Part shown: piece by piece, positions 39,706 through 47,745 of the stretch
Layout of the letters: each line of letters begins with the position of its first letter
Numbering within the stretch: the stretch's first letter is position 1
Assembly (NCBI GenBank): GCA_016194865.1
Contig: JACQAT010000005.1
Span: forward strand, 12,358 to 76,357
Direction of reading: 5' to 3'
Length of the DNA stretch: 64,000 nt
Origin: Chloroflexota bacterium
GTDB lineage: Bacteria; Chloroflexota; Limnocylindria; P2-11E
The notes under the pieces: generated by a model
What the model saw: the letters and a program-made list of their open reading frames with translations, nothing else
The model's database searches: none
Told to the model about the DNA's origin: nothing
Position numbers and translations under genes: made by a program

Positions 39706-41961
39706 ATGATCGCGACGGCGCTGCGCGCGCTGTTCCCGCCCATCGCGTGGTCGCGGCTGCGCTTCCGAGGCGGGCTCGTCGCGCTGCCGATCTTCGTCGT
39801 GATGCAGCTCGTCTACCCCGCGTCGCTCGAGCAGGCCGAGTGGGTCGAGGCGACCTCCCAGTTCGCCGGTCTGGCGCTCTTCGCGCTCGCGCTCGGCACG
39901 GTCATCGGCAACGGCCGGCTGTCCGCGCGGCGCGCCAGCCTCGTCGGCGTGGTCAGCGGGGCCCTCGCGGTGTTCCTCTTCACCCTCGGCGTGAGCGACG
40001 CGGGTCCGCTGCACGCCCGCGCCGCCGCCCTCGGCATCAGGGTGAACAACTACCTCACGCAGGTCCTCGCGGGCGAGGCCGCGAGCGATCCGACGGTCTT
40101 CATCCTGTTCCTCGGCGCGTCGGTGTGGGCCTCGACGTTCGTCGGGTCGTTCGCGCTCGCGCGCTCGAAGCGCCTGTGGGACGCGATCCTGCTCTCGGGG
40201 TTCTGCCTCGTGGTGAACACGTCCCTGGCGCTCACGTCGCTGCTGCAGGACCTCGTGGTCTTCACGGTCTGCGTGCTGCTGCTGCTCGTGCGCCTCCACA
40301 TGGTCACGCTGCAGGAGCGCTGGGCGCGGCAGAACATCGTGCCGACCGGCGAGATGGACTGGCGGCTGCTGCGCGGCGGCCTCACCTGGACCCTGGTCCT
40401 CGTGATCATGGCGGTCGCGACACCGCGCGTCGGCGCGGCCGAGCTCGTGAACAACGCGTTCGGCTCGTTCGAGGGCCCCTACCACCGCGTCGAGGCCGAG
40501 TGGCAGCGCTTCTTTGCCGGCGTCTCCGGACCGAGCCGCCTGCGCGGCGTGTCGTTCTCGGACTCGATCCGGCTCGGCCAGGCGCCGAACCTCGGCGACC
40601 GCGTCGTGCTCAACGTCGACGCCCCGGCGGGCCACTTCTGGCGCGCCGTCACCTACGACTTCTACACCGGTCAGGGCTGGCGCACGACCGAGCAGGACAA
40701 GGCCGACAGGATCGACCCGAGGTACAGCGGCCGCGAGAAGATCGACGTCACCTTCGACGTCGTCGTCCCGCACGCGAACATCCTGTTCGCGCCGAACGAG
40801 CCGACGAAGGTGAACATCCCGTTCCAGTTCCAGACGGGCGAGGATCGCAACTACTCGACCTCGCTCCACGCCGTGAACCGCGCGCAGGCCGAGGGCCCGT
40901 ACACCGTGACGGCGCTCGTCTCGACCGCGGACAAGGTGACGCTGCGCAAGGCCACGACCGCGTATCCGGCGTACATCAAGACGAAGTACCTCCAGCTGCC
41001 CACCAGCCTGCCGCAGCGCGTGAAGGACAAGGCGCACACGATCGCCGACGGCAAGGCGACGCCGTACGACAAGGCCGAGGCGCTCGAGACCTACCTGCGC
41101 CAGAACTACAAGTACTCGACCGTCGTCCGCGCGCCGCCCGCGGGCCGCGACCCGGTCGACTACTTCCTCTTCGACCTCAAGGAGGACTTCTGCGAGTACT
41201 TCGCGTCGTCCATGACCGTGATGCTGCGCGAGCTCGGCATCCCGGCGCGCATGGTCGAGGGCTTCTCGACGGGCACGTTCGATCCGGAGCAGGGCCGCTA
41301 CATCGTGCGCGAGCTCAACGCGCACGCGTGGGTCGAGGCCTACTTCCCGCAGTACGGCTGGATCGAGTTCGAGCCCACGCCGTCGGAGACGGTGTTCCCG
41401 CGCGTCGAGGACGTCACGTTGATCAACGACGGGAGCGCCGTGGTCGGTGAGAACGGTGCGGTCCGCGACGCCAACGACCCGGACGCGCTCGGGCGCGACG
41501 AGAAAGAGGGCGCGGGCCCGGACGGCAGCGACAGCAGCTTCGCCGGCGGCGTGCTGAACGTGGTGCGGGAGATCGACCCGCGCCCGGCCATCGCCGCGGT
41601 GCTGCTGCTCCTGCTCGGCCTGCTCGCGGCGTACGCGCGCTTCGAGCTGCGCTTCCGGGATCTCGCGCCGATCGACCGGGCATGGGCGAAGACGCGGCTG
41701 CTCGGCTCCTACCTCGGCCATGCCCCGGCCGCGTCGCAGACCACCTACGAGTACGCCGACTCTCTCGGTCGCGCCGTGCCGGATGCGCACGGCCCGCTGC
41801 GCGACATCGCGCACGCGCGGGTCGTGGACCGCTACTCGAGGTCGGGCGTGACCGACGTCGAGCTCGACGCCGTGGAGAACGCCTGGGGCCGCGTCGCCCG
41901 GGCGCTCATCGCGCTCGTGCCGCAGCGGATCGTGCGGGCCATCGCGCGCTTCGTCCACTGA
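39706..41961 (+). CDS. Membrane transglutaminase-like protein (TgpA type)
   Basis: Multi-TM N-terminus, FCEYFAS (catalytic Cys), AHAWVEAYF, GWIEFEPTP. Confidence 0.92.
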   Translation: MIATALRALFPPIAWSRLRFRGGLVALPIFVVMQLVYPASLEQAEWVEATSQFAGLALFALALGTVIGNGRLSARRASLVGVVSGALAVFLFTLGVSDAGPLHARAAALGIRVNNYLTQVLAGEAASDPTVFILFLGASVWASTFVGSFALARSKRLWDAILLSGFCLVVNTSLALTSLLQDLVVFTVCVLLLLVRLHMVTLQERWARQNIVPTGEMDWRLLRGGLTWTLVLVIMAVATPRVGAAELVNNAFGSFEGPYHRVEAEWQRFFAGVSGPSRLRGVSFSDSIRLGQAPNLGDRVVLNVDAPAGHFWRAVTYDFYTGQGWRTTEQDKADRIDPRYSGREKIDVTFDVVVPHANILFAPNEPTKVNIPFQFQTGEDRNYSTSLHAVNRAQAEGPYTVTALVSTADKVTLRKATTAYPAYIKTKYLQLPTSLPQRVKDKAHTIADGKATPYDKAEALETYLRQNYKYSTVVRAPPAGRDPVDYFLFDLKEDFCEYFASSMTVMLRELGIPARMVEGFSTGTFDPEQGRYIVRELNAHAWVEAYFPQYGWIEFEPTPSETVFPRVEDVTLINDGSAVVGENGAVRDANDPDALGRDEKEGAGPDGSDSSFAGGVLNVVREIDPRPAIAAVLLLLLGLLAAYARFELRFRDLAPIDRAWAKTRLLGSYLGHAPAASQTTYEYADSLGRAVPDAHGPLRDIAHARVVDRYSRSGVTDVELDAVENAWGRVARALIALVPQRIVRAIARFVH

Positions 41962-42437
41962 GCGGGCCCGACCACCCGAACATCGAGCGCGTCCGCGCTC
42001 ACGCGAGCGCCTGCGGCGTCGAGCTCCCGGTCAAGCGCTTCAGCGGGACGACGCGGACCGCCGAGGACGCCGCGCGCGAGATCGGCTGCGGCGTCGCGGA
42101 GATCGTGAAGTCGCTCGTGTTCGTCGCCGACGGGTCGCCGGTCGTCGTGTGCTGCTCGGGCGCCCAGCGCGTCGACGAGCAGCGTCTCGCTGCAGCGCTC
42201 GGCGCGTCGCGCGTGCGGCGCTCGACCGCCGACGAGGCGAAGGACGCGACCGGCTTCCCGATCGGCGGCATCCCACCATTCGCCCACGCGACGCCGTGCC
42301 GCGTGCTCGTCGATCGTGGGCTGCTGGCGTACGAGACCGTGTGGGCCGCCGCCGGCCTGCATGACGCCGTGTTCCCGATCGCGCCGGCCGAGCTCGTGCG
42401 GCTGGCCGGCGCGACGCTCGCCGACGTCGCGGTCTGA
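41958..42437 (+). CDS. YbaK/EbsC family aminoacyl-tRNA deacylase
   Basis: TRTAEDAA..IG....IVKSLVF, TGFPIGGIPPF, WAAAG. Likely CTG start in a CTGA overlap. Confidence 0.85.
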   Translation: MSGPDHPNIERVRAHASACGVELPVKRFSGTTRTAEDAAREIGCGVAEIVKSLVFVADGSPVVVCCSGAQRVDEQRLAAALGASRVRRSTADEAKDATGFPIGGIPPFAHATPCRVLVDRGLLAYETVWAAAGLHDAVFPIAPAELVRLAGATLADVAV

Positions 42438-43366
42438 TGCGCGTCTTCGTCACCGGCGCGGCCGGCTTCGTCATGGGCGCCGTCGCGCGCGAGCTGCGCG
42501 CGCGTGGCGACGCGGTGGTCGCGCTGGTCCGCGATCCGGATAGGGCGGTCCGGCTGCGCGAGCTGGGCTGCGAGCTGGTGGTCGGCGACCTCGCCGCTCA
42601 GGCCGCGCTCGAGCGTGGCCTGAGCGGCGCGGCCGCGGCGATCCACGGCGCGGCGATCTACGAGGTCGGCATCTCGCGAGCGCGCCGATCAGCGTTGTTC
42701 GAGTCGAACGTGCGCGGCACCGAGCGCGTGCTGAGCGCCGCGCTCGCCGCGCGCGTCCCGAAGGTCGTGTACGTCTCGAGCGTCGTCGTGTTGGGCGACA
42801 CGCACGGCAAGATCGTCGACGAGGCATATCGGCGCGATCCCGGCTACACGTCGTACTACGACGAGACCAAGCATCGCGCGCACGAGATCGCGCTGCGCTT
42901 CATCGAGCGCGGCCTGCCCTGCGTGATCGTCCAGCCCGGCCAGGTCTACGGCCCGGGCGATCACTCCGGCATCGGCGGCGTGCTCCACGACGCGAGCCGC
43001 GGCCGGCTGCCGGCGATCGTCTTCGCGGATCTCGGCCTGGACTTCGTCCACGTCGACGACGTCGCGGACGGCATCCTGCTCGCGCTCGATCGCGGTCGTG
43101 TCGGGGAGTCATTCGTGCTCGGCGGCGAGAACGCGACCGTGCGTGACGCGCTGCGGACCCTCGCGCGCGTGACCGGCCATCGCGCGCCGCGGATCGAGAT
43201 ACCGGCCGCGCCGCTCCGCGCCCTCGCCCCGTTCAGCTCGCGCCTGCGCGAGATCCTCTCATCCGCCGATGGCGTGACGTTCTGGGCGAGAGATGACAAG
43301 GCGAGACAGGAGCTCGGCTACGCGCCGCGCGATCTCGAGACAGGACTGCGCCAGACGTATCACTAG
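42437..43366 (+). CDS. NAD-dependent epimerase/dehydratase family protein
   Basis: TGAAGFV, NVRGT, YDETK (YxxxK), VYGPGD, VHVDDVA. Confidence 0.9.
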   Translation: MRVFVTGAAGFVMGAVARELRARGDAVVALVRDPDRAVRLRELGCELVVGDLAAQAALERGLSGAAAAIHGAAIYEVGISRARRSALFESNVRGTERVLSAALAARVPKVVYVSSVVVLGDTHGKIVDEAYRRDPGYTSYYDETKHRAHEIALRFIERGLPCVIVQPGQVYGPGDHSGIGGVLHDASRGRLPAIVFADLGLDFVHVDDVADGILLALDRGRVGESFVLGGENATVRDALRTLARVTGHRAPRIEIPAAPLRALAPFSSRLREILSSADGVTFWARDDKARQELGYAPRDLETGLRQTYH

Positions 43367-43401
43367 GGGCGGCGCCGGATCGGTATACACGCGGTCGCAC
43401 G

Positions 43402-44292
43402 CTAGTGGCGGGGTGACGTCGGTCCTTCCCGGAGGAGGTCTACGACCGCGTCCGACATCTGTTGGCCCGCGAGATCCTCGTAGTGGGAGAACGCGGGCGA
43501 CGGATTGACCTCGAAGCAGTAAGGGGCGCCGTCGGCCCGGAACTTCAGGTCGAGCCCCGCGATCATCAGGCCGAGCTCAGCCGCCAGATGTCGACAGGCG
43601 TCCGCAACAGTGCTGTCAAGCTCATGTGGCGCGTAGCGCACGTGCGAACCGTAGCGCTGCGCATATCGATAGTCGATCGTATCGGTCTCGATCGCGGTCG
43701 CGAAGACGTCGCGACCGATGACGTGGACGCGCACATTCAACCCCTCGACGAATTCTTGGAACTGCACCGGCGACCATCGAACTCGGCTCAGATCCGCGTC
43801 TCTCGTCAGTTCGGTCACGATCGAGCGCACCGAGCTGATCGACTTGAACACCACCCGTGCGTGCTCACGAGCGAAGGCACGCACGCGGTCGGGGTCATTC
43901 GTTATCAGCGTGTCCGGCACGAGAAATCCCGCACGCGCGATCACCTGCAGCTGCCCAGGTTTCGAGTAGTTGGTTGCCATGAGCGAAGGTCGGTTCACGA
44001 CCAGAGCACCGGTGACTTCGAGCCAATCGGTGATCCGATCCACGAACCGTTGCGCGGCATGGTCCGTTGGTACCGGACGCTCGAGCCGCGCGTACGCGGC
44101 AGAGCGCTCCCCCAGCGGGAACGCAGCACCATCCAGCACCAGACACGCGTGGTCTGGTCCGTCGCCCTCCAGCCAGGCCCGGTCCGCAGGCTCATCCTGA
44201 TCCGCGAAGACGAAGGGAACAGATGCATCCTTGAGTGCCCGCGCGGTAGCCCGTACAGGGCCATCGCGGCCGCTGCCGAAGAGGAATATCAC
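43402..44292 (-). CDS. RimK-like ATP-grasp ligase (peptide maturase-like)
   Basis: VVNRP, SKPGQL, GFLVPDTLITNDP, VVFKS, FQEFVEG, VRVHVIG, DYR, GLDL, FEVNPSP. GTG 44292 in a GTGA overlap. Confidence 0.9.
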   Translation of the reverse strand: MIFLFGSGRDGPVRATARALKDASVPFVFADQDEPADRAWLEGDGPDHACLVLDGAAFPLGERSAAYARLERPVPTDHAAQRFVDRITDWLEVTGALVVNRPSLMATNYSKPGQLQVIARAGFLVPDTLITNDPDRVRAFAREHARVVFKSISSVRSIVTELTRDADLSRVRWSPVQFQEFVEGLNVRVHVIGRDVFATAIETDTIDYRYAQRYGSHVRYAPHELDSTVADACRHLAAELGLMIAGLDLKFRADGAPYCFEVNPSPAFSHYEDLAGQQMSDAVVDLLREGPTSPRH

Positions 44293-44990
44293 GATGCCGT
44301 TCGGGCGAGCTCGCGAAGGCGGGCCAGGAGCGCGTCTCCGCCAAGACGAAGGTCGGCGTCCAGCGACGCATCGGTGAATGTCCATCCCTCGGTACCGGCC
44401 ACGAGTCGGATCTCGACGAGTTCGGTCTGCGTACGTTGGCAGAGCGCCCGCGCAGCGTCTCGAAGCTCGGCGGGCAACTCGACTCCCACGGACTCGCCGT
44501 AGAGCAGCAGCGCGTACATCGTGGGCCGTTCCTCGGTGACCTCGATCCCGGCGTCCCATGGGTCGCGCGTCTCGAAGCCTGCACGCCGCGCGAGCGTTCG
44601 CCACTGCGCCGGCGAGCGATACGGGCCGCGCGGCCCGGAGCCGACAGGTCGGTTGAGCACGGGCCCTGGCAGGCAGTTCATCCAGCTCGCGAAGAGCGCG
44701 AGCGATTCCTCGTACGCATACTCGCGGTCGTCCTCAGTCGCAAGCGGCTGTGAGGGTGGGTGGTGGCGGTTCAGCACCAGACCGACGGTCTGCTCGGTGA
44801 GGTTCCGCCCGTCGGCGAGCTCGATGGTGAACGCATTCCGTTCGCCCGCGACCGTGTGCTCGATACGCAGAGCGCTTGCGAGCTCCCCTGAGCCCACGAG
44901 GTCGATGTCCGTGCCCATGGCTCGAAGCCGAAGATAGGCCCACAGAGCGCTCTCGTCTCGACTGTCGCAGATCACCAGAGCGCGGCGCAT
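44289..44990 (-). CDS. Degenerate ATP-grasp-like protein
   Basis: Pre-ATP-grasp-like N-terminus, VLNRP, ARRAGF; short, with no recognisable E-x-N motif. ATG 44990; translationally coupled to the ligase. Confidence 0.65.
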   Translation of the reverse strand: MRRALVICDSRDESALWAYLRLRAMGTDIDLVGSGELASALRIEHTVAGERNAFTIELADGRNLTEQTVGLVLNRHHPPSQPLATEDDREYAYEESLALFASWMNCLPGPVLNRPVGSGPRGPYRSPAQWRTLARRAGFETRDPWDAGIEVTEERPTMYALLLYGESVGVELPAELRDAARALCQRTQTELVEIRLVAGTEGWTFTDASLDADLRLGGDALLARLRELARTAS

Positions 44991-45012
44991 CCCAGAACCG
45001 CGACGCTTGCTA

Positions 45013-45705
45013 CTACGCGCTCGTGTCCCGCGCGTCCTTCCGCAGCCGGGCCGACTCATCGCGATCCCGCAGCTCGGCCGCCACCGCGAGCAATGCGGCG
45101 CTGCTCGGATCCGCAGGCGTAGGTCCGACCCGCGGCCGCAACGTCGCGTCTATGAAGTGACGCAATTCGCCGCGCGCACTCGGCGTGTCGCCATCCTTGC
45201 CCTTGTCGCTGCTGTCCTTCGTGCTGTCCTTCGTCTTATGCGGGCCCTCGGTCGGGTCCTTGTCGGCGGAGTCCTTGTCGTCCTTGCTCGCCTTCGTGCG
45301 AAGCGCGCCTTGTTCACGCGGTCCTTTTTCGTCTGGCTTATCGCCAGGCTTGTCACGGGACTTGTCGTCAGGTTTATCCCAACTGTCGAGCTTGTCGCCC
45401 GGTTTCTCTTTGTCCTTGTCAGTCTTATCCCCGGGCTTCTCGAATGGCTTCTCCGGCCTCGCGCTCGCGAACGGGAGCTCCGCCGCCTCACGCTCCTTGG
45501 GCTTGTCTCCGTCCTTCGTCTTGTGCGGACCCTCGCTCGGGTCCTTTGGGCCTGGATCCGTGATCGGCCGTGGAGGCTGTTCTCGCGCTTTCTCCGATAC
45601 CTTGTCTCCGTCCTTCGTCTTGGGCGGACTTTCCCGCGGATCCTTGGGTGGATCCTCACGGCCCTTCTCGTGCGGCACCTTGGCAAACCGAGCCTGGCTG
45701 GCCAT
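45013..45705 (-). CDS. Repetitive Lys/Asp/Glu/Pro-rich protein, candidate ATP-grasp substrate (precursor)
   Basis: GGGAAAGGA RBS before ATG 45705; 230 aa; KDPxExPxKTKD three times and many DK units; first gene of the ATP-grasp cassette. Confidence 0.7.
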   Translation of the reverse strand: MASQARFAKVPHEKGREDPPKDPRESPPKTKDGDKVSEKAREQPPRPITDPGPKDPSEGPHKTKDGDKPKEREAAELPFASARPEKPFEKPGDKTDKDKEKPGDKLDSWDKPDDKSRDKPGDKPDEKGPREQGALRTKASKDDKDSADKDPTEGPHKTKDSTKDSSDKGKDGDTPSARGELRHFIDATLRPRVGPTPADPSSAALLAVAAELRDRDESARLRKDARDTSA

Positions 45706-45823
45706 CTCTGATCCTTTCCCGGCGCTGGCGCGCCCGAAACCCACGCGCAAAGGGGTGGGCTTGACCGCTACGTCGTGAGCACCGAGGACAATAGGACCAG
45801 CGTCAAGTTCAACGTAGCGAGAG

Positions 45824-46144
45824 CTACGGTCGCTCCTCCTCGTCGTCGCCGTCGTCGTCGGACTCGAACTCGTCGGAGTAGAAGCCGAGCTCCTCGCCCT
45901 TGAACACCGTGACCAGGAAGTCCTCGCGCTCGGGGTCGTGCGTCTGCACGAGCTCCTCGTCGAGCTGGTCGATCAGCTGCTGGAGCTCGTCGTCCTGGAG
46001 GTCCACCTCGAGGAGCAGCGTCGCATTGACCTCGAAGCGGCCGTAATGCAGGTCCACGCGGCCGATGCGGCGCGCGCCGCCGTAGATGGCGAACACCTCG
46101 CTCGCCTCGGTGCGGACCGCGCGCTCGAACCTCGCTGCTTCCAT
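45824..46144 (-). CDS. Hypothetical acidic protein (106 aa)
   Basis: ATG start after a TAGAGT -10-like box, host-like codon usage, FER..RT..SE..GRVDLHY pattern. Confidence 0.75.
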   Translation of the reverse strand: MEAARFERAVRTEASEVFAIYGGARRIGRVDLHYGRFEVNATLLLEVDLQDDELQQLIDQLDEELVQTHDPEREDFLVTVFKGEELGFYSDEFESDDDGDDEEERP

Positions 46145-46167
46145 GAGGGCTGGACTCTACACGCCCG

Positions 46168-47745
46168 CTAGACGCCGAGACGCGCGGTGCGGACCTCGAC
46201 GATGTCGGCGTAGTGGCCGATGCGCTCGCGCACGGCGTCGGGGACGGGGTCGTCGAGCGTCAGGATCATGAGCGCCTCGCCGCGCGGATTGCGCCGTCCG
46301 ACCTGCATGGACGAGATGTTCACGTCGTTCTCGCCCAGGACGGTCCCGACGCGGCCGACGAGGCCGGGCTTGTCGGTGTGCTTCGTGAGCAGCAGGTGCC
46401 CCTCGATGGGCACGTCGACCCAGAAGCCGTCGATGCGGACGATGCGCGGCTCGCCCTGCACGAGCGATCCCGCGACCTCGGTCCCGCCGACGCGCAGCGT
46501 GAGCAGGCTCGTGTAGCGCGCGGGCTCGAGCTCCTGGCGCTCGGCGATCGCGAGCCCGCGATCCTTCGCGAGCGCGAGCGCGTTCACGAGATTCACGCGC
46601 TGCTCCGAGAACTGCTCGAGCAGGCCCTTCACGCCAGCGGCGCGCAGCGGCTCCGGGTCGAGCTCGAGCAGCGTCCCCTGATAGACGAGCTCGAGGCTGC
46701 TCGGGCGGCCCTCGAGGAGCTGCGCGGCGAGCGAGCCGAGCCCCTCGGCAAGACGCAGCCACGCGGTGCCGCCCGCCTCTTCGCTCGGCGGGCGCGGCGC
46801 GTTCACCGCGTCGCGCGCGGGCCGGCCCTGCAGCACGTCGATGATCTGGCGCGCCACGTCGACGGAGACGTTCGTCTGCGCCTCGACGGTCGAGCCCGCG
46901 ATGTGCGGCGTGAGGATCGTGCGCGGCGCGGAGCGGAGGGGAGAGTCGGCCGGCAGCGGCTCGGTCGCGAAGACGTCGAGCGCGGCGCCTGCGAGCTCGT
47001 TCTTCTCGAGCGCGCTCGCCAGCGCCGCGGGGTCGACGACCTCGCCGCGCGAGCAGTTCACGAGGATCGCGGTCGGCTTCATCAGCGCGAGCGTCGTCGC
47101 GTTGATCATGCCGCGCGTCTTCTCGGTGAGCGGCGTGTGCAGCGAGATGACGTCGGCGTCGCGCAGCAGCTCGTCGAGCTCGACCAGGCGCGCGCCGAGC
47201 GCGCGCGCGCCGGCCTCGGTCGCGTACGGGTCGTGGGCGATCACGTGCATCTCGAACGCGGCCGCGCGGCGCGCGACGAGCCCGCCCACGCGCCCGATGC
47301 CGATGAGCCCGAGCGTCTTCCCGCGCAGCTCGCGTCCCATGAACGCGCTTCGCGTCCACTTCCCGGCCCGCACGCTCTGGTCGGCGTCGACCACCTTGCG
47401 CAGCAGCGCGAGCGACAGCGTGAGCGCGTGCTCCGCGGCGGCCCAGACGTTGCCGAACGGGGCGTTCACGACGTACACGCCACGCGCCGTGGCGGCCGGC
47501 ACGTCGATGTTGTCGACGCCGACGCCGGCGCGACCGACCACCATGAGCTTCTTCGCCGCGTCCAGGACCTTCGCGGTGACCTTCGTCTCGCTGCGCACGA
47601 CGAGACCGTCGCTGTCGGCGACCTGCTTCAGGAGGTCGGCCTCGCTCAGTCCCGTCGCGACGCGCACCTCGCAGTGCTCCCGCAGGAGGTCGATGCCCTC
47701 CTGCGCGACCGGGTCCGCGACGAGGACGACGGGTCTGTTGCTAAC
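46168..47745 (-). CDS. serA: D-3-phosphoglycerate dehydrogenase
   Basis: VLVADP, GRAGVGVDNID, GIGRVG, TPHIAGST, C-terminal ACT domain (DKPGLVG...NISSMQVGR). No canonical start upstream of 47667, so the start is uncertain. Confidence 0.92.
   Translation of the reverse strand, partial: VSNRPVVLVADPVAQEGIDLLREHCEVRVATGLSEADLLKQVADSDGLVVRSETKVTAKVLDAAKKLMVVGRAGVGVDNIDVPAATARGVYVVNAPFGNVWAAAEHALTLSLALLRKVVDADQSVRAGKWTRSAFMGRELRGKTLGLIGIGRVGGLVARRAAAFEMHVIAHDPYATEAGARALGARLVELDELLRDADVISLHTPLTEKTRGMINATTLALMKPTAILVNCSRGEVVDPAALASALEKNELAGAALDVFATEPLPADSPLRSAPRTILTPHIAGSTVEAQTNVSVDVARQIIDVLQGRPARDAVNAPRPPSEEAGGTAWLRLAEGLGSLAAQLLEGRPSSLELVYQGTLLELDPEPLRAAGVKGLLEQFSEQRVNLVNALALAKDRGLAIAERQELEPARYTSLLTLRVGGTEVAGSLVQGEPRIVRIDGFWVDVPIEGHLLLTKHTDKPGLVGRVGTVLGENDVNISSMQVGRRNPRGEALMILTLDDPVPDAVRERIGHYADIVEVRTARLGV

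What the first reader, a model, noticed from the sequence alone, without database searches (positions are those of the whole stretch)
43402..45705. Candidate novel ATP-grasp peptide-modification (graspetide-like) cassette
Seen: three co-directional minus-strand genes sit between unrelated core genes and have visibly more A/T-ending codons. They encode a 230-aa low-complexity protein, a degenerate ATP-grasp-like protein, and an intact RimK-like ligase coupled to it by a GTGA overlap. Known: graspetide synthetases (MvdC/MvdD, PsnB) join Asp/Glu side chains to Lys or Ser/Thr in precursors encoded alongside, often with repeated cores. Inference: the repeat protein is the substrate and receives many Lys-Asp/Glu isopeptide or Thr/Ser ester links. 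Its size, lack of a recognisable leader, and the absence of a protease or exporter do not match graspetide groups I recognise. It could be a new RiPP class or a protein cross-linking/tailing system.
Basis: partly seen in the sequence, partly recalled or inferred. Interest (0 to 1): 0.88.

Follow-up and report, generated by a model that had tools for sequence, protein, structure and literature searches.

The report
ATP-grasp pair with tagged substrate protein
A small horizontally acquired three-gene cassette encodes a peptide-crosslinking-type ligase, a dead copy of that ligase, and a charged repeat protein ending in a conserved tag that is probably the ligase's target.

Summary
Three co-directional minus-strand genes lie at 43402-45705: a 230-aa K/D/P/E-rich repeat protein, a 233-aa degenerate ATP-grasp paralogue, and an intact 296-aa ligase joined to it by a GTGA overlap. 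Their GC3 is 0.74-0.79 against 0.90-0.97 in five flanking genes. In three related genomes the two flanking genes abut, so the cassette is an insertion.

The ligase groups with graspetide macrocyclases (PsnB 151 bits, full length), not with RimK (47-49 bits) or LysX (29 bits). The trio is conserved across many phyla. A dead paralogue sits directly upstream of the ligase in 78 of 81 loci. A protein ending in F-I-x3-L-R-P sits upstream of that in 69 of 81.

The conserved part of the third protein is this C-terminal module behind a K/E/D-rich spacer, not the repeats themselves. Elsewhere the same module is attached to S8, M6 or trypsin-like peptidases, Kelch or TIG domains.

Makarova et al. 2022 describe a matching ligase clade ("branch 8": truncated ATP-grasp, assorted peptidases, no precursor found). 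My reading is that the tagged neighbour is the missing substrate. The chemistry is untested. I rate it a new variant of a known kind, interest about 0.66.

The parts
43402..44292 (-). ATP-grasp ligase, 296 aa, GTG start; graspetide-synthetase type with all family-invariant residues
44289..44292 (-). GTGA overlap of the ORF2 stop and the ligase start (translational coupling); the same 4-nt overlap occurs in 60 of 78 cassettes
44289..44990 (-). ORF2, 233 aa: truncated, catalytically dead ATP-grasp paralogue with no Pfam, NCBIfam or PADLOC family
45013..45705 (-). ORF3, 230 aa: K/D/P/E-rich repeat protein with a conserved C-terminal module; the probable substrate
45181..45666 (-). Low-complexity K/D/E/P-rich spacer of ORF3 (about residues 14-175), holding three copies of a 48-nt unit at 45217-45264, 45502-45549 and 45601-45648
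45016..45180 (-). C-terminal module of ORF3 (residues 176-230); matches the family profile with E 7.9e-10 as the only hit in the genome
45133..45156 (-). Core motif FIDATLRP (F184-P191). I, R and P are invariant and F and L nearly invariant in the 36-sequence alignment
45712..45719 (-). Shine-Dalgarno-like GGAAAGGA upstream of the ORF3 ATG
   Evidence: read from the sequence

Best explanation
The three genes are one self-contained, horizontally acquired cassette of a widespread family. An active graspetide-synthetase-type ATP-grasp ligase is made together with a truncated, catalytically dead paralogue. The two probably work as a complex. Their target is the protein encoded just upstream.

That protein is built as [variable N-terminal part or none] - [K/E/D-rich low-complexity spacer] - [conserved C-terminal module centred on F-I-x3-L-R-P, followed by a tail of about 20-55 residues rich in S/T, K and D/E]. 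I propose that the F-I-x3-L-R-P element acts as a recognition sequence, like the PFFARFL leader helix of microviridin precursors. It would dock on the ATP-grasp pair. The ligase would then phosphorylate an Asp or Glu side chain near it and close one or more side-chain ester or isopeptide links, either within the tail or to a Lys of the spacer.

Shown: gene order, coupling, homology, loss of catalytic residues in ORF2, conservation and C-terminal position of the module, one module per cassette, and insertion into this genome.

Inferred: that ORF3 is the substrate, that the motif is the docking element, that ORF2 and the ligase form a complex, and the chemistry.
For: LIGASE PLACEMENT
- Family profile against the PDB: PsnB 151 bits, E 2.8e-43, over the full length. 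CdnC, MdnC, PruB, MdnB and AMdnB score 91-105 bits. RimK scores 47-49 bits on the C-terminal half only, and LysX 29 bits.
- NCBIfam order: TIGR04187 120.5 bits, then MvdD 66.8, MvdC 57.3, rimK_fam 49.7, LysX 22.7.

CONSERVED ARCHITECTURE
- The family is large: 1687 proteins with E <= 1e-3 among 8000 scored.
- An ORF2-like gene lies directly upstream of the ligase in 78 of 81 cassettes (80 loci plus the window). A motif-bearing ORF lies upstream of that in 69 of 81.
- The 4-nt stop/start overlap occurs in 60 of 78 cassettes.
- No other neighbour is conserved across the set.

ORF2 AS A DEAD PARALOGUE
- hhalign probability 97.8%, with a central deletion of about 70 residues.
- None of its invariant columns corresponds to the ligase's invariant K150, R188, D248, E261 or N263.
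- The model's fold matches graspetide macrocyclases with TMq 0.63-0.71.

THE MODULE
- I, R and P are invariant and F and L nearly invariant in 36 sequences.
- 600 clusters at 50% identity match at E <= 1e-3, and 279 at <= 1e-10.
- Among the best 150, the module ends within 15 aa of the C-terminus in 143, and [FY]Ixxx.RP is present in 147.
- It occurs once in the window's genome. In five large genomes it occurs 1, 1, 2, 1 and 1 times.
- The N-terminal parts differ: none, S8, M6, trypsin/NAL1-like, Kelch, TIG x7 with DUF6519. Only the module and spacer travel with the enzyme pair.
- In the M6 clade the motif reads P-F-I-G-x-x-L. This recalls PFFARFL and the 'Phhx(1,2)h' leader motif quoted in PMC8939145 (section 4 part 1).

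LITERATURE
- PMC8939145 (section 4 part 4 and conclusions) describes a branch with a truncated inactive ATP-grasp and peptidases of unrelated families, for which no precursor was found. Their candidate precursors were limited to 150 aa or less.
Against: - No curated graspetide-maturase threshold is met (TIGR04187 120.5 bits against a cut-off of 350).
- The tail has no column with a conserved nucleophile or acceptor. Only F, I, L, R and P are (nearly) invariant, so no ring pattern can be read off.
- The window's motif is atypical: LRPRV, where 119 of 147 representatives have LRPDL. It also lacks the upstream LExRLxxLE helix seen in most homologues.
- AF2 predicts the window's tail (residues 36-65 of the 66-aa module) as one long helix with pLDDT around 90, and the FIDATLRP stretch as mostly non-helical. 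That is unlike the loop-like cores of known graspetides.
- The module sits on whole folded domains typical of extracellular proteins, and I saw no signal peptide by eye. A tag or anchoring role is as natural a reading as a RiPP.
- No exporter or separate leader peptidase is conserved.
- No experiment exists.
Confidence: 0.55

Rival explanations
1. The enzyme pair and substrate are the same, but the K/D/E-rich repeat region itself is the core. It receives many Lys-Asp/Glu isopeptide or Ser/Thr ester links, within one molecule or between molecules. The C-terminal module serves only as a recognition element placed after the core.
For: The K/E/D-rich composition is kept across phyla although the repeat sequences differ. 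Median K+E+D is 0.44 in the 100 aa upstream of the module, and it is at least 0.35 in 96 of 114. The short forms consist almost only of this region plus the module. Recent papers report graspetide ligases acting on repeated K...E motifs: the abstract of PMC12848669 in the listing, and corallotide with five Lys isopeptide repeats in the abstract of PMC13097080.
Against: The repeat sequences are not conserved in register. In this window the region is Pro-rich (13% P), while others are KE(F/I)KE-like. A charged spacer would explain the same composition. In characterised graspetides the leader precedes the core (recalled).
Confidence: 0.2
2. The neighbouring protein is not the substrate. As Makarova et al. 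2022 and Carter et al. 2026 proposed for the peptidase-linked groups they describe (which I equate with this family by features only), the adjacent peptidases make peptides from other proteins, mature a product, or confer resistance. The true precursor would be encoded elsewhere or be too small to call.
For: PMC8939145, section 4 part 4 and conclusions. PMC13097080, section 7. Peptidase domains are common in the neighbour: 9 M6 and 8 S8 of the 52 scanned.
Against: This window's neighbour, and 33 of 81 by my crude classification, have no peptidase domain. Others carry Kelch or TIG domains. The only part shared by all neighbours is the C-terminal module plus spacer. It occurs once per cassette.
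Confidence: 0.1
3. Tailing instead of crosslinking. As RimK does, or as tubulin glutamylases do, the ligase adds free amino acids (for example Glu) to the C-terminus or to Glu side chains of the tagged protein.
For: ATP-grasp enzymes that act on protein C-terminal tails exist (RimK with S6, LysX with LysW). Pfam's top hit is the RimK domain. The tails are acidic after the motif.
Against: RimK and LysX profiles score far lower than graspetide synthetases and only over the C-terminal half. The extreme C-termini are not conserved.
Confidence: 0.07
4. The module is a non-covalent docking or targeting tag. It would bring variable cargo domains to the ATP-grasp pair or to some assembly, while the ligase modifies something else or the cargo domain.
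For: The architecture of a variable head with a constant C-terminal tail behind a flexible spacer resembles sorting or encapsulation tags (general knowledge). The cargo domains are of types usually found outside the cell, yet I saw no signal peptide by eye.
Against: No shell, secretion or sorting genes are conserved nearby. Short forms carry no cargo at all.
Confidence: 0.08

Closest known systems
PsnB / plesiocin synthetase (graspetide group 2; PDB 7DRM)
   Same: It is the best solved relative of the ligase family: 151 bits, E 2.8e-43, aligned over nearly the whole length. It has the same ATP-grasp macrocyclase fold and conserved ATP/Mg-site columns.
   Different: PsnB works without a dead paralogue, on a short precursor with an N-terminal leader and repeated cores (recalled). 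Here the neighbour is 230 to more than 1200 aa, the conserved element is C-terminal, and a pseudo-enzyme partner is nearly always present.
Microviridin MdnB/MdnC with the MdnA leader PFFARFL
   Same: MdnC and MdnB score about 101-102 bits. They are also among the top fold matches of ORF2. The P/H-F-I-x3-L element resembles the PFFARFL / 'Phhx(1,2)h' leader motif quoted in PMC8939145.
   Different: In microviridin both ATP-grasp enzymes are active, and precursors are about 50 aa, usually with a protease or exporter. The spacing of the motif here (three x, then R-P) does not fit 'Phhx(1,2)h'.
'Branch 8' ATP-grasp loci of Makarova et al. 2022 (PMC8939145)
   Same: A truncated, catalytically inactive ATP-grasp sits next to the ligase, peptidases of unrelated families occur in the loci, and no small precursor was found.
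   Different: The authors proposed precursors encoded elsewhere. In the text I read they do not mention the shared C-terminal module, the K/E-rich spacer or non-peptidase neighbours.
Partner-dependent graspetides (rosaritide MirB-MirC) and the large repeat precursor corallotide, Carter et al. 2026 (PMC13097080)
   Same: There is precedent for a graspetide synthetase that needs a co-purifying partner, and for an unusually large precursor with repeated Lys isopeptide motifs (abstract and passages). [quoted passage not shown]
   Different: MirC is a PPIase-type protein, not an ATP-grasp paralogue. Corallotide loci carry a 2OG oxygenase and a beta-lactamase-like gene. I could not check the membership of group 32 because the supplements are closed.
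RimK (S6 glutamate tailing) and LysX (LysW carrier ligation)
   Same: They are ATP-grasp enzymes acting on a protein's C-terminal region, and Pfam's best hit is RimK.
   Different: They score much lower and only on the C-terminal half (47-49 and 29 bits). The neighbours here have no conserved C-terminal Glu tail.

Membership tests
Graspetide synthetases (MvdC/MvdD/PsnB-type ATP-grasp macrocyclases) | Closer in sequence to solved graspetide macrocyclases than to RimK, LysX or Ddl, over the full length including the pre-ATP-grasp N-domain | tested here: met
   PsnB 151 bits over profile positions 2-299. CdnC, MdnC, PruB, MdnB and AMdnB score 91-105 bits. RimK scores 47-49 bits from position ~109 on, and LysX 29 bits. 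No tree with outgroups was built.
Graspetide synthetases (MvdC/MvdD/PsnB-type ATP-grasp macrocyclases) | Reaches the curated NCBIfam cut-off of a named maturase family (TIGR04187, TIGR04184 or TIGR04185) | tested here: not met
   120.5 bits against 350, 66.8 against 475, and 57.3 against 425. The match covers residues 93-287 only.
Graspetide synthetases (MvdC/MvdD/PsnB-type ATP-grasp macrocyclases) | Intact ATP- and Mg-binding residues | tested here: met
   K150, R188, D248, E261 and N263 are invariant in 14 family members including the window. That these are the ATP/Mg residues is recalled from ATP-grasp literature and from the alignment to PsnB.
Graspetide synthetases (MvdC/MvdD/PsnB-type ATP-grasp macrocyclases) | Adjacent precursor with a leader recognition motif followed by a core with conserved S/T/K donors and D/E acceptors | tested here: inconclusive
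   An adjacent protein with a conserved F-I-x3-L-R-P motif and an S/T-, K- and D/E-containing tail is present. No donor or acceptor column is conserved, and the protein is 230 aa or longer.
Graspetide synthetases (MvdC/MvdD/PsnB-type ATP-grasp macrocyclases) | Forms side-chain macrolactone or macrolactam links | not testable with these tools
   This needs mass spectrometry of the co-expressed proteins.
RimK / LysX-type C-terminal ligases | Best similarity to RimK or LysX, and a substrate with a conserved C-terminal Glu tail | tested here: not met
   Searches give lower, partial scores. Searches show variable C-termini in the neighbours.
'Branch 8' loci of Makarova et al. 2022 | Ligase accompanied by a truncated, catalytically inactive ATP-grasp | tested here: met
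'Branch 8' loci of Makarova et al. 2022 | Peptidases of several unrelated families in the loci | tested here: met
   This is met in homologous loci: S8, M6 and trypsin/NAL1-like. The window's own neighbour has no peptidase domain.
'Branch 8' loci of Makarova et al. 2022 | Same sequences or accessions as in the authors' tree | not testable with these tools

The most novel reading that the evidence does not exclude
This is a protein-level use of graspetide chemistry, not a peptide natural product. Whole proteins would carry a C-terminal tag (peptidases, Kelch or TIG proteins, or bare K/E-rich polyampholytes as in this window). An ATP-grasp/pseudo-ATP-grasp heterocomplex would use that tag to make covalent side-chain links. 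Those links could be a lariat between the tag and the Lys-rich spacer, or intermolecular isopeptide links that build covalent protein assemblies. That would be an ATP-driven protein crosslinking or tethering system in the cytoplasm of many soil bacteria.
Probability: 0.25. Interest if true: 0.85.

Novelty: new variant of a known kind. Interest (0 to 1): 0.66.

Why it matters
Makarova et al. [quoted passage not shown] If the tagged neighbour is the substrate, that question can be tested directly with three genes in E. coli.

It would extend graspetide-type chemistry from short leader-core peptides to full-size proteins, including active-looking peptidases. It would add a case of an ATP-grasp pseudo-enzyme partner. 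It would also define a new C-terminal protein module: 600 clusters at 50% identity match it at E <= 1e-3, and no Pfam or NCBIfam model matched the module region in the 11 proteins scanned against both libraries (the window's ORF3 and 10 homologues).

The short form in this window (230 aa, no cargo domain) is a convenient minimal substrate.

Tried and rejected
- Complex prediction. I folded ligase, ORF2, ATP and the 66-aa C-terminal module, each protein with its alignment and the module as the scored partner. The verdict was 'no answer'. Scores were 0.51, 0.13 and 0.76. Both partner-replaced controls scored 0.00, but the control with the ligase replaced scored 0.79. This counts neither for nor against binding.
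- PADLOC. The three window proteins and two peptidase-bearing homologues gave no match, so nothing ties the cassette to a known defence system.
- Promoter and terminator consensus scan of 43200-46200: nothing found.
- Flanking repeats, as a sign of an integration mechanism: only short repeats of 23 nt or less (77-94% matching), and none brackets the cassette. No integrase or tRNA was sought beyond this.
- Other conserved neighbours. None is shared across the set. One gene of about 100 aa follows the ligase in 27 of 80 loci, all of them in the M6 clade of the ligase tree; it is absent from the window.
- AF2 model of the module alone. Mean pLDDT was 75.8, with the tail as one helix. It did not show how the motif is used.
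- Apparent ORF3-ORF2 fusions (L060, P0185). I rejected these as evidence. In L060 the ORF2 frame also ends about 190 nt early, and the P0185 sequence after the module looks like wrong-frame translation. Frameshifts are the likelier cause.
- First ORF2 comparison. I used a wrong frame boundary and it gave nothing. It was corrected.
- A tree of the ligase with RimK, LysX and named graspetide groups was not built. I relied on profile scores. The tree holds only family members and is midpoint-rooted.
- Literature. No paper in the searchable library describes the C-terminal module or names the neighbour as substrate. Paywalled papers and supplements were not visible.
- Papers seen. For PMC8939145 I read section 4 parts 1, 3 and 4 and found-passages. 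For PMC13097080 I read the outline and abstract, section 7 and found-passages. PMC12848669 and the others I saw only in the search listings.
Full report
WHAT IS THERE

The minus strand between 43402 and 45705 carries three co-directional genes.

- ORF3 (45013-45705) starts at an ATG preceded by GGAAAGGA. It encodes 230 aa with D 15.2%, K 14.8%, P 13.0% and E 7.8%. It includes three dispersed copies of a 48-nt unit.
- ORF2 (44289-44990, 233 aa) begins 22 nt after the ORF3 stop.
- The ligase (43402-44292, 296 aa) starts at a GTG that overlaps the ORF2 stop as GTGA.

GC3 of the three genes is 0.74-0.79. It is 0.90-0.97 in five neighbouring genes. A sixth listed ORF (41682-42437) gave 0.786, but its 5' end over-extends. 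The flanking genes are ordinary: a TgpA-like transglutaminase, a tRNA-editing domain protein, an SDR epimerase, SerA and a class-V aminotransferase.

THE CASSETTE IS AN INSERTION

- With the ligase as query, I found only one weak match in 40 related genomes. It is in G007: 55 bits, 34% identity over residues 94-294, with an internal TGA. That tally includes the unpublished G005.
- The acidic 106-aa gene just upstream of the cassette is conserved in 15 of 15 genomes of the same family at 80-90% identity (which also includes G005).
- In three of eight relatives' loci examined (L085, L088, L089) the epimerase homologue and this gene are convergent and end within about 50 nt of each other. In the window they are 2.46 kb apart.
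- None of the eight loci has a match to the ligase, ORF2 or ORF3.
- I saw no flanking repeats.

THE LIGASE

Pfam gives only weak RimK and ATP-grasp_3 hits. NCBIfam ranks TIGR04187 (ATP-grasp ribosomal peptide maturase, 120.5 bits) above MvdD, MvdC, rimK_fam and LysX. All are below their curated cut-offs.

A profile of 14 family members finds PsnB at 151 bits over the full length, then CdnC, MdnC, PruB, MdnB and AMdnB at 91-105 bits. RimK scores 47-49 bits on the C-terminal half only, and LysX 29 bits. The columns I take to be the ATP/Mg site are invariant.

The family is large and spread over many phyla: Acidobacteriota, Actinomycetota, Myxococcota, Chloroflexota, Nitrospirota, Verrucomicrobiota, Pseudomonadota and one archaeal MAG. 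The window's protein is only 47-48% identical to its best relatives. It sits on a long branch in a tree of family members only.

ORF2

ORF2 has no Pfam, NCBIfam or PADLOC family. Its Atlas clusters are all 'hypothetical protein'. Even so, a profile of 20 homologues aligns to the ligase profile with 97.8% probability over 238 columns. About 70 residues are deleted where the ligase has its ATP-binding centre, and none of the catalytic columns is kept.

The AF2 model (pLDDT 90.8) matches graspetide macrocyclases best. ORF2 is therefore a dead paralogue. This fits the 'truncated ATP-grasp ... catalytically inactive' of branch 8 in PMC8939145.

An ORF2-like gene lies directly upstream of the ligase in 78 of 81 cassettes; it was not found in L027, L055 and L064. 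The 4-nt overlap is kept in 60 of 78. That argues for co-translation and probably a complex.

ORF3 AND THE UNEXPECTED PART

tblastn with the window's ORF3 found only weak hits. They clustered at its C-terminus and lay just upstream of the ORF2 homologues. Reading those ORFs showed a shared plan:

- a K/E/D-rich low-complexity stretch;
- usually an LExRLxxLExAV helix;
- an (H/P)-F-I-x3-L-R-P-D-L element;
- an acidic patch;
- a tail of about 20-55 residues.

In the 36-sequence alignment I, R and P are invariant and F and L nearly so. A motif-bearing ORF was found in 69 of 81 cassettes. The 12 misses break down as follows.

- Five have the ligase within 900 nt of the contig end (L053, L058, L064, L069, L081).
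- Two have the motif in an ORF that my length filter dropped (L010, L066).
- One reads through into ORF2 (L060).
- In four I did not find it (L027, L055, L057, L077).

Against 1.84 billion representative proteins, the module profile finds 600 clusters at E <= 1e-3. Among the best 150 it ends within 15 residues of the C-terminus in 143. The 100 residues before it have K+E+D of at least 0.35 in 96 of the 114 that are long enough.

The N-terminal parts vary:

- none, as in this window and in the 33 of 81 that a crude classifier called 'short';
- S8 subtilase;
- M6 metallopeptidase;
- trypsin/NAL1-like;
- Kelch propeller;
- seven TIG domains with DUF6519.

I saw no signal peptides by eye and ran no predictor. 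The module occurs once in the window's genome. In five large genomes it occurs 1, 1, 2, 1 and 1 times, so there is one module per cassette.

INTERPRETATION

The only things that travel with the enzyme pair are the module and its charged spacer. The adjacent protein is therefore most simply read as the dedicated substrate, with F-I-x3-L-R-P as the recognition element. This parallels the PFFARFL leader of microviridin precursors, which binds the ATP-grasp and activates it (PMC8939145 section 4 part 1).

The modification is most likely a side-chain ester or isopeptide link near the module, as in the nearest enzymes. This is inference. No donor or acceptor column is conserved. The window's motif is atypical, LRPRV. 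AF2 sees the window's tail as a plain helix.

Four alternatives cannot be excluded: crosslinking within the K/E/D repeats, tailing, a pure docking tag, or a substrate encoded elsewhere. They are listed as rivals.

RELATION TO WHAT IS KNOWN

Makarova et al. 2022 singled out two ligase branches linked to 'peptidases ... of several unrelated families' with no detectable precursor. Branch 8 typically has a truncated inactive ATP-grasp. Their candidate precursors were capped at 150 aa, which would exclude these proteins.

Carter et al. [quoted passage not shown] I could not check either identity by accession, because the supplements are closed. Six literature searches found no description of the module or of the neighbour as substrate.

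The cassette is therefore a divergent new member of an already noticed but uncharacterised ligase clade.

VERDICT

The novelty class is a new variant of a known kind. Interest is 0.66.

Noticed in passing
L007:5923-6231 and 26 other loci: A fourth small gene (~100 aa, no Pfam family at E <= 0.01) directly follows the ligase in 27 of 80 loci. All 27 fall in the M6 clade of the ligase tree; the neighbour carries an M6 peptidase wherever it could be classified (19 of the 27), the rest being truncated or unclassified. The window lacks it.
   Followed up: partly
L080 (contig titled Methanobacteriota archaeon MAG): A complete M6-type cassette (tagged M6 protein, ORF2-like gene, ligase, fourth gene) lies on a contig binned as archaeal. 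This is either cross-domain transfer or a binning error.
   Followed up: no
L060:1966-4809; P0185: The tagged protein appears to read through into ORF2. These are probably frameshift or assembly artefacts, not true fusions.
   Followed up: partly
G043 (genome of L044), C1:1279238-1279462 and C1:8526322-8526528: One Streptomyces genome has two copies of the C-terminal module, in ORFs of 637 aa and 371 aa. This suggests two cassettes of different type in one genome.
   Followed up: no
window 45824-46144 (-): A very acidic 106-aa protein of no known family has host-like GC3 (0.95). It is conserved at 80-90% identity in 15 of 15 genomes of the same family and at 73% in the sister family. It is not part of the cassette.
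   Followed up: partly
L062:591-4295: The tagged protein of one of the window's nearer relatives is 1235 aa, with DUF6519 and seven IPT/TIG domains. Its module is a variant ending ...FIKSEERPEVG..., only 11 residues before the stop.
   Followed up: no
G007:C16:1459-2106 (L082): The only related genome with any match to the ligase has a 34%-identical ATP-grasp stretch interrupted by a TGA. It is a different ATP-grasp gene or a pseudogene.
   Followed up: no
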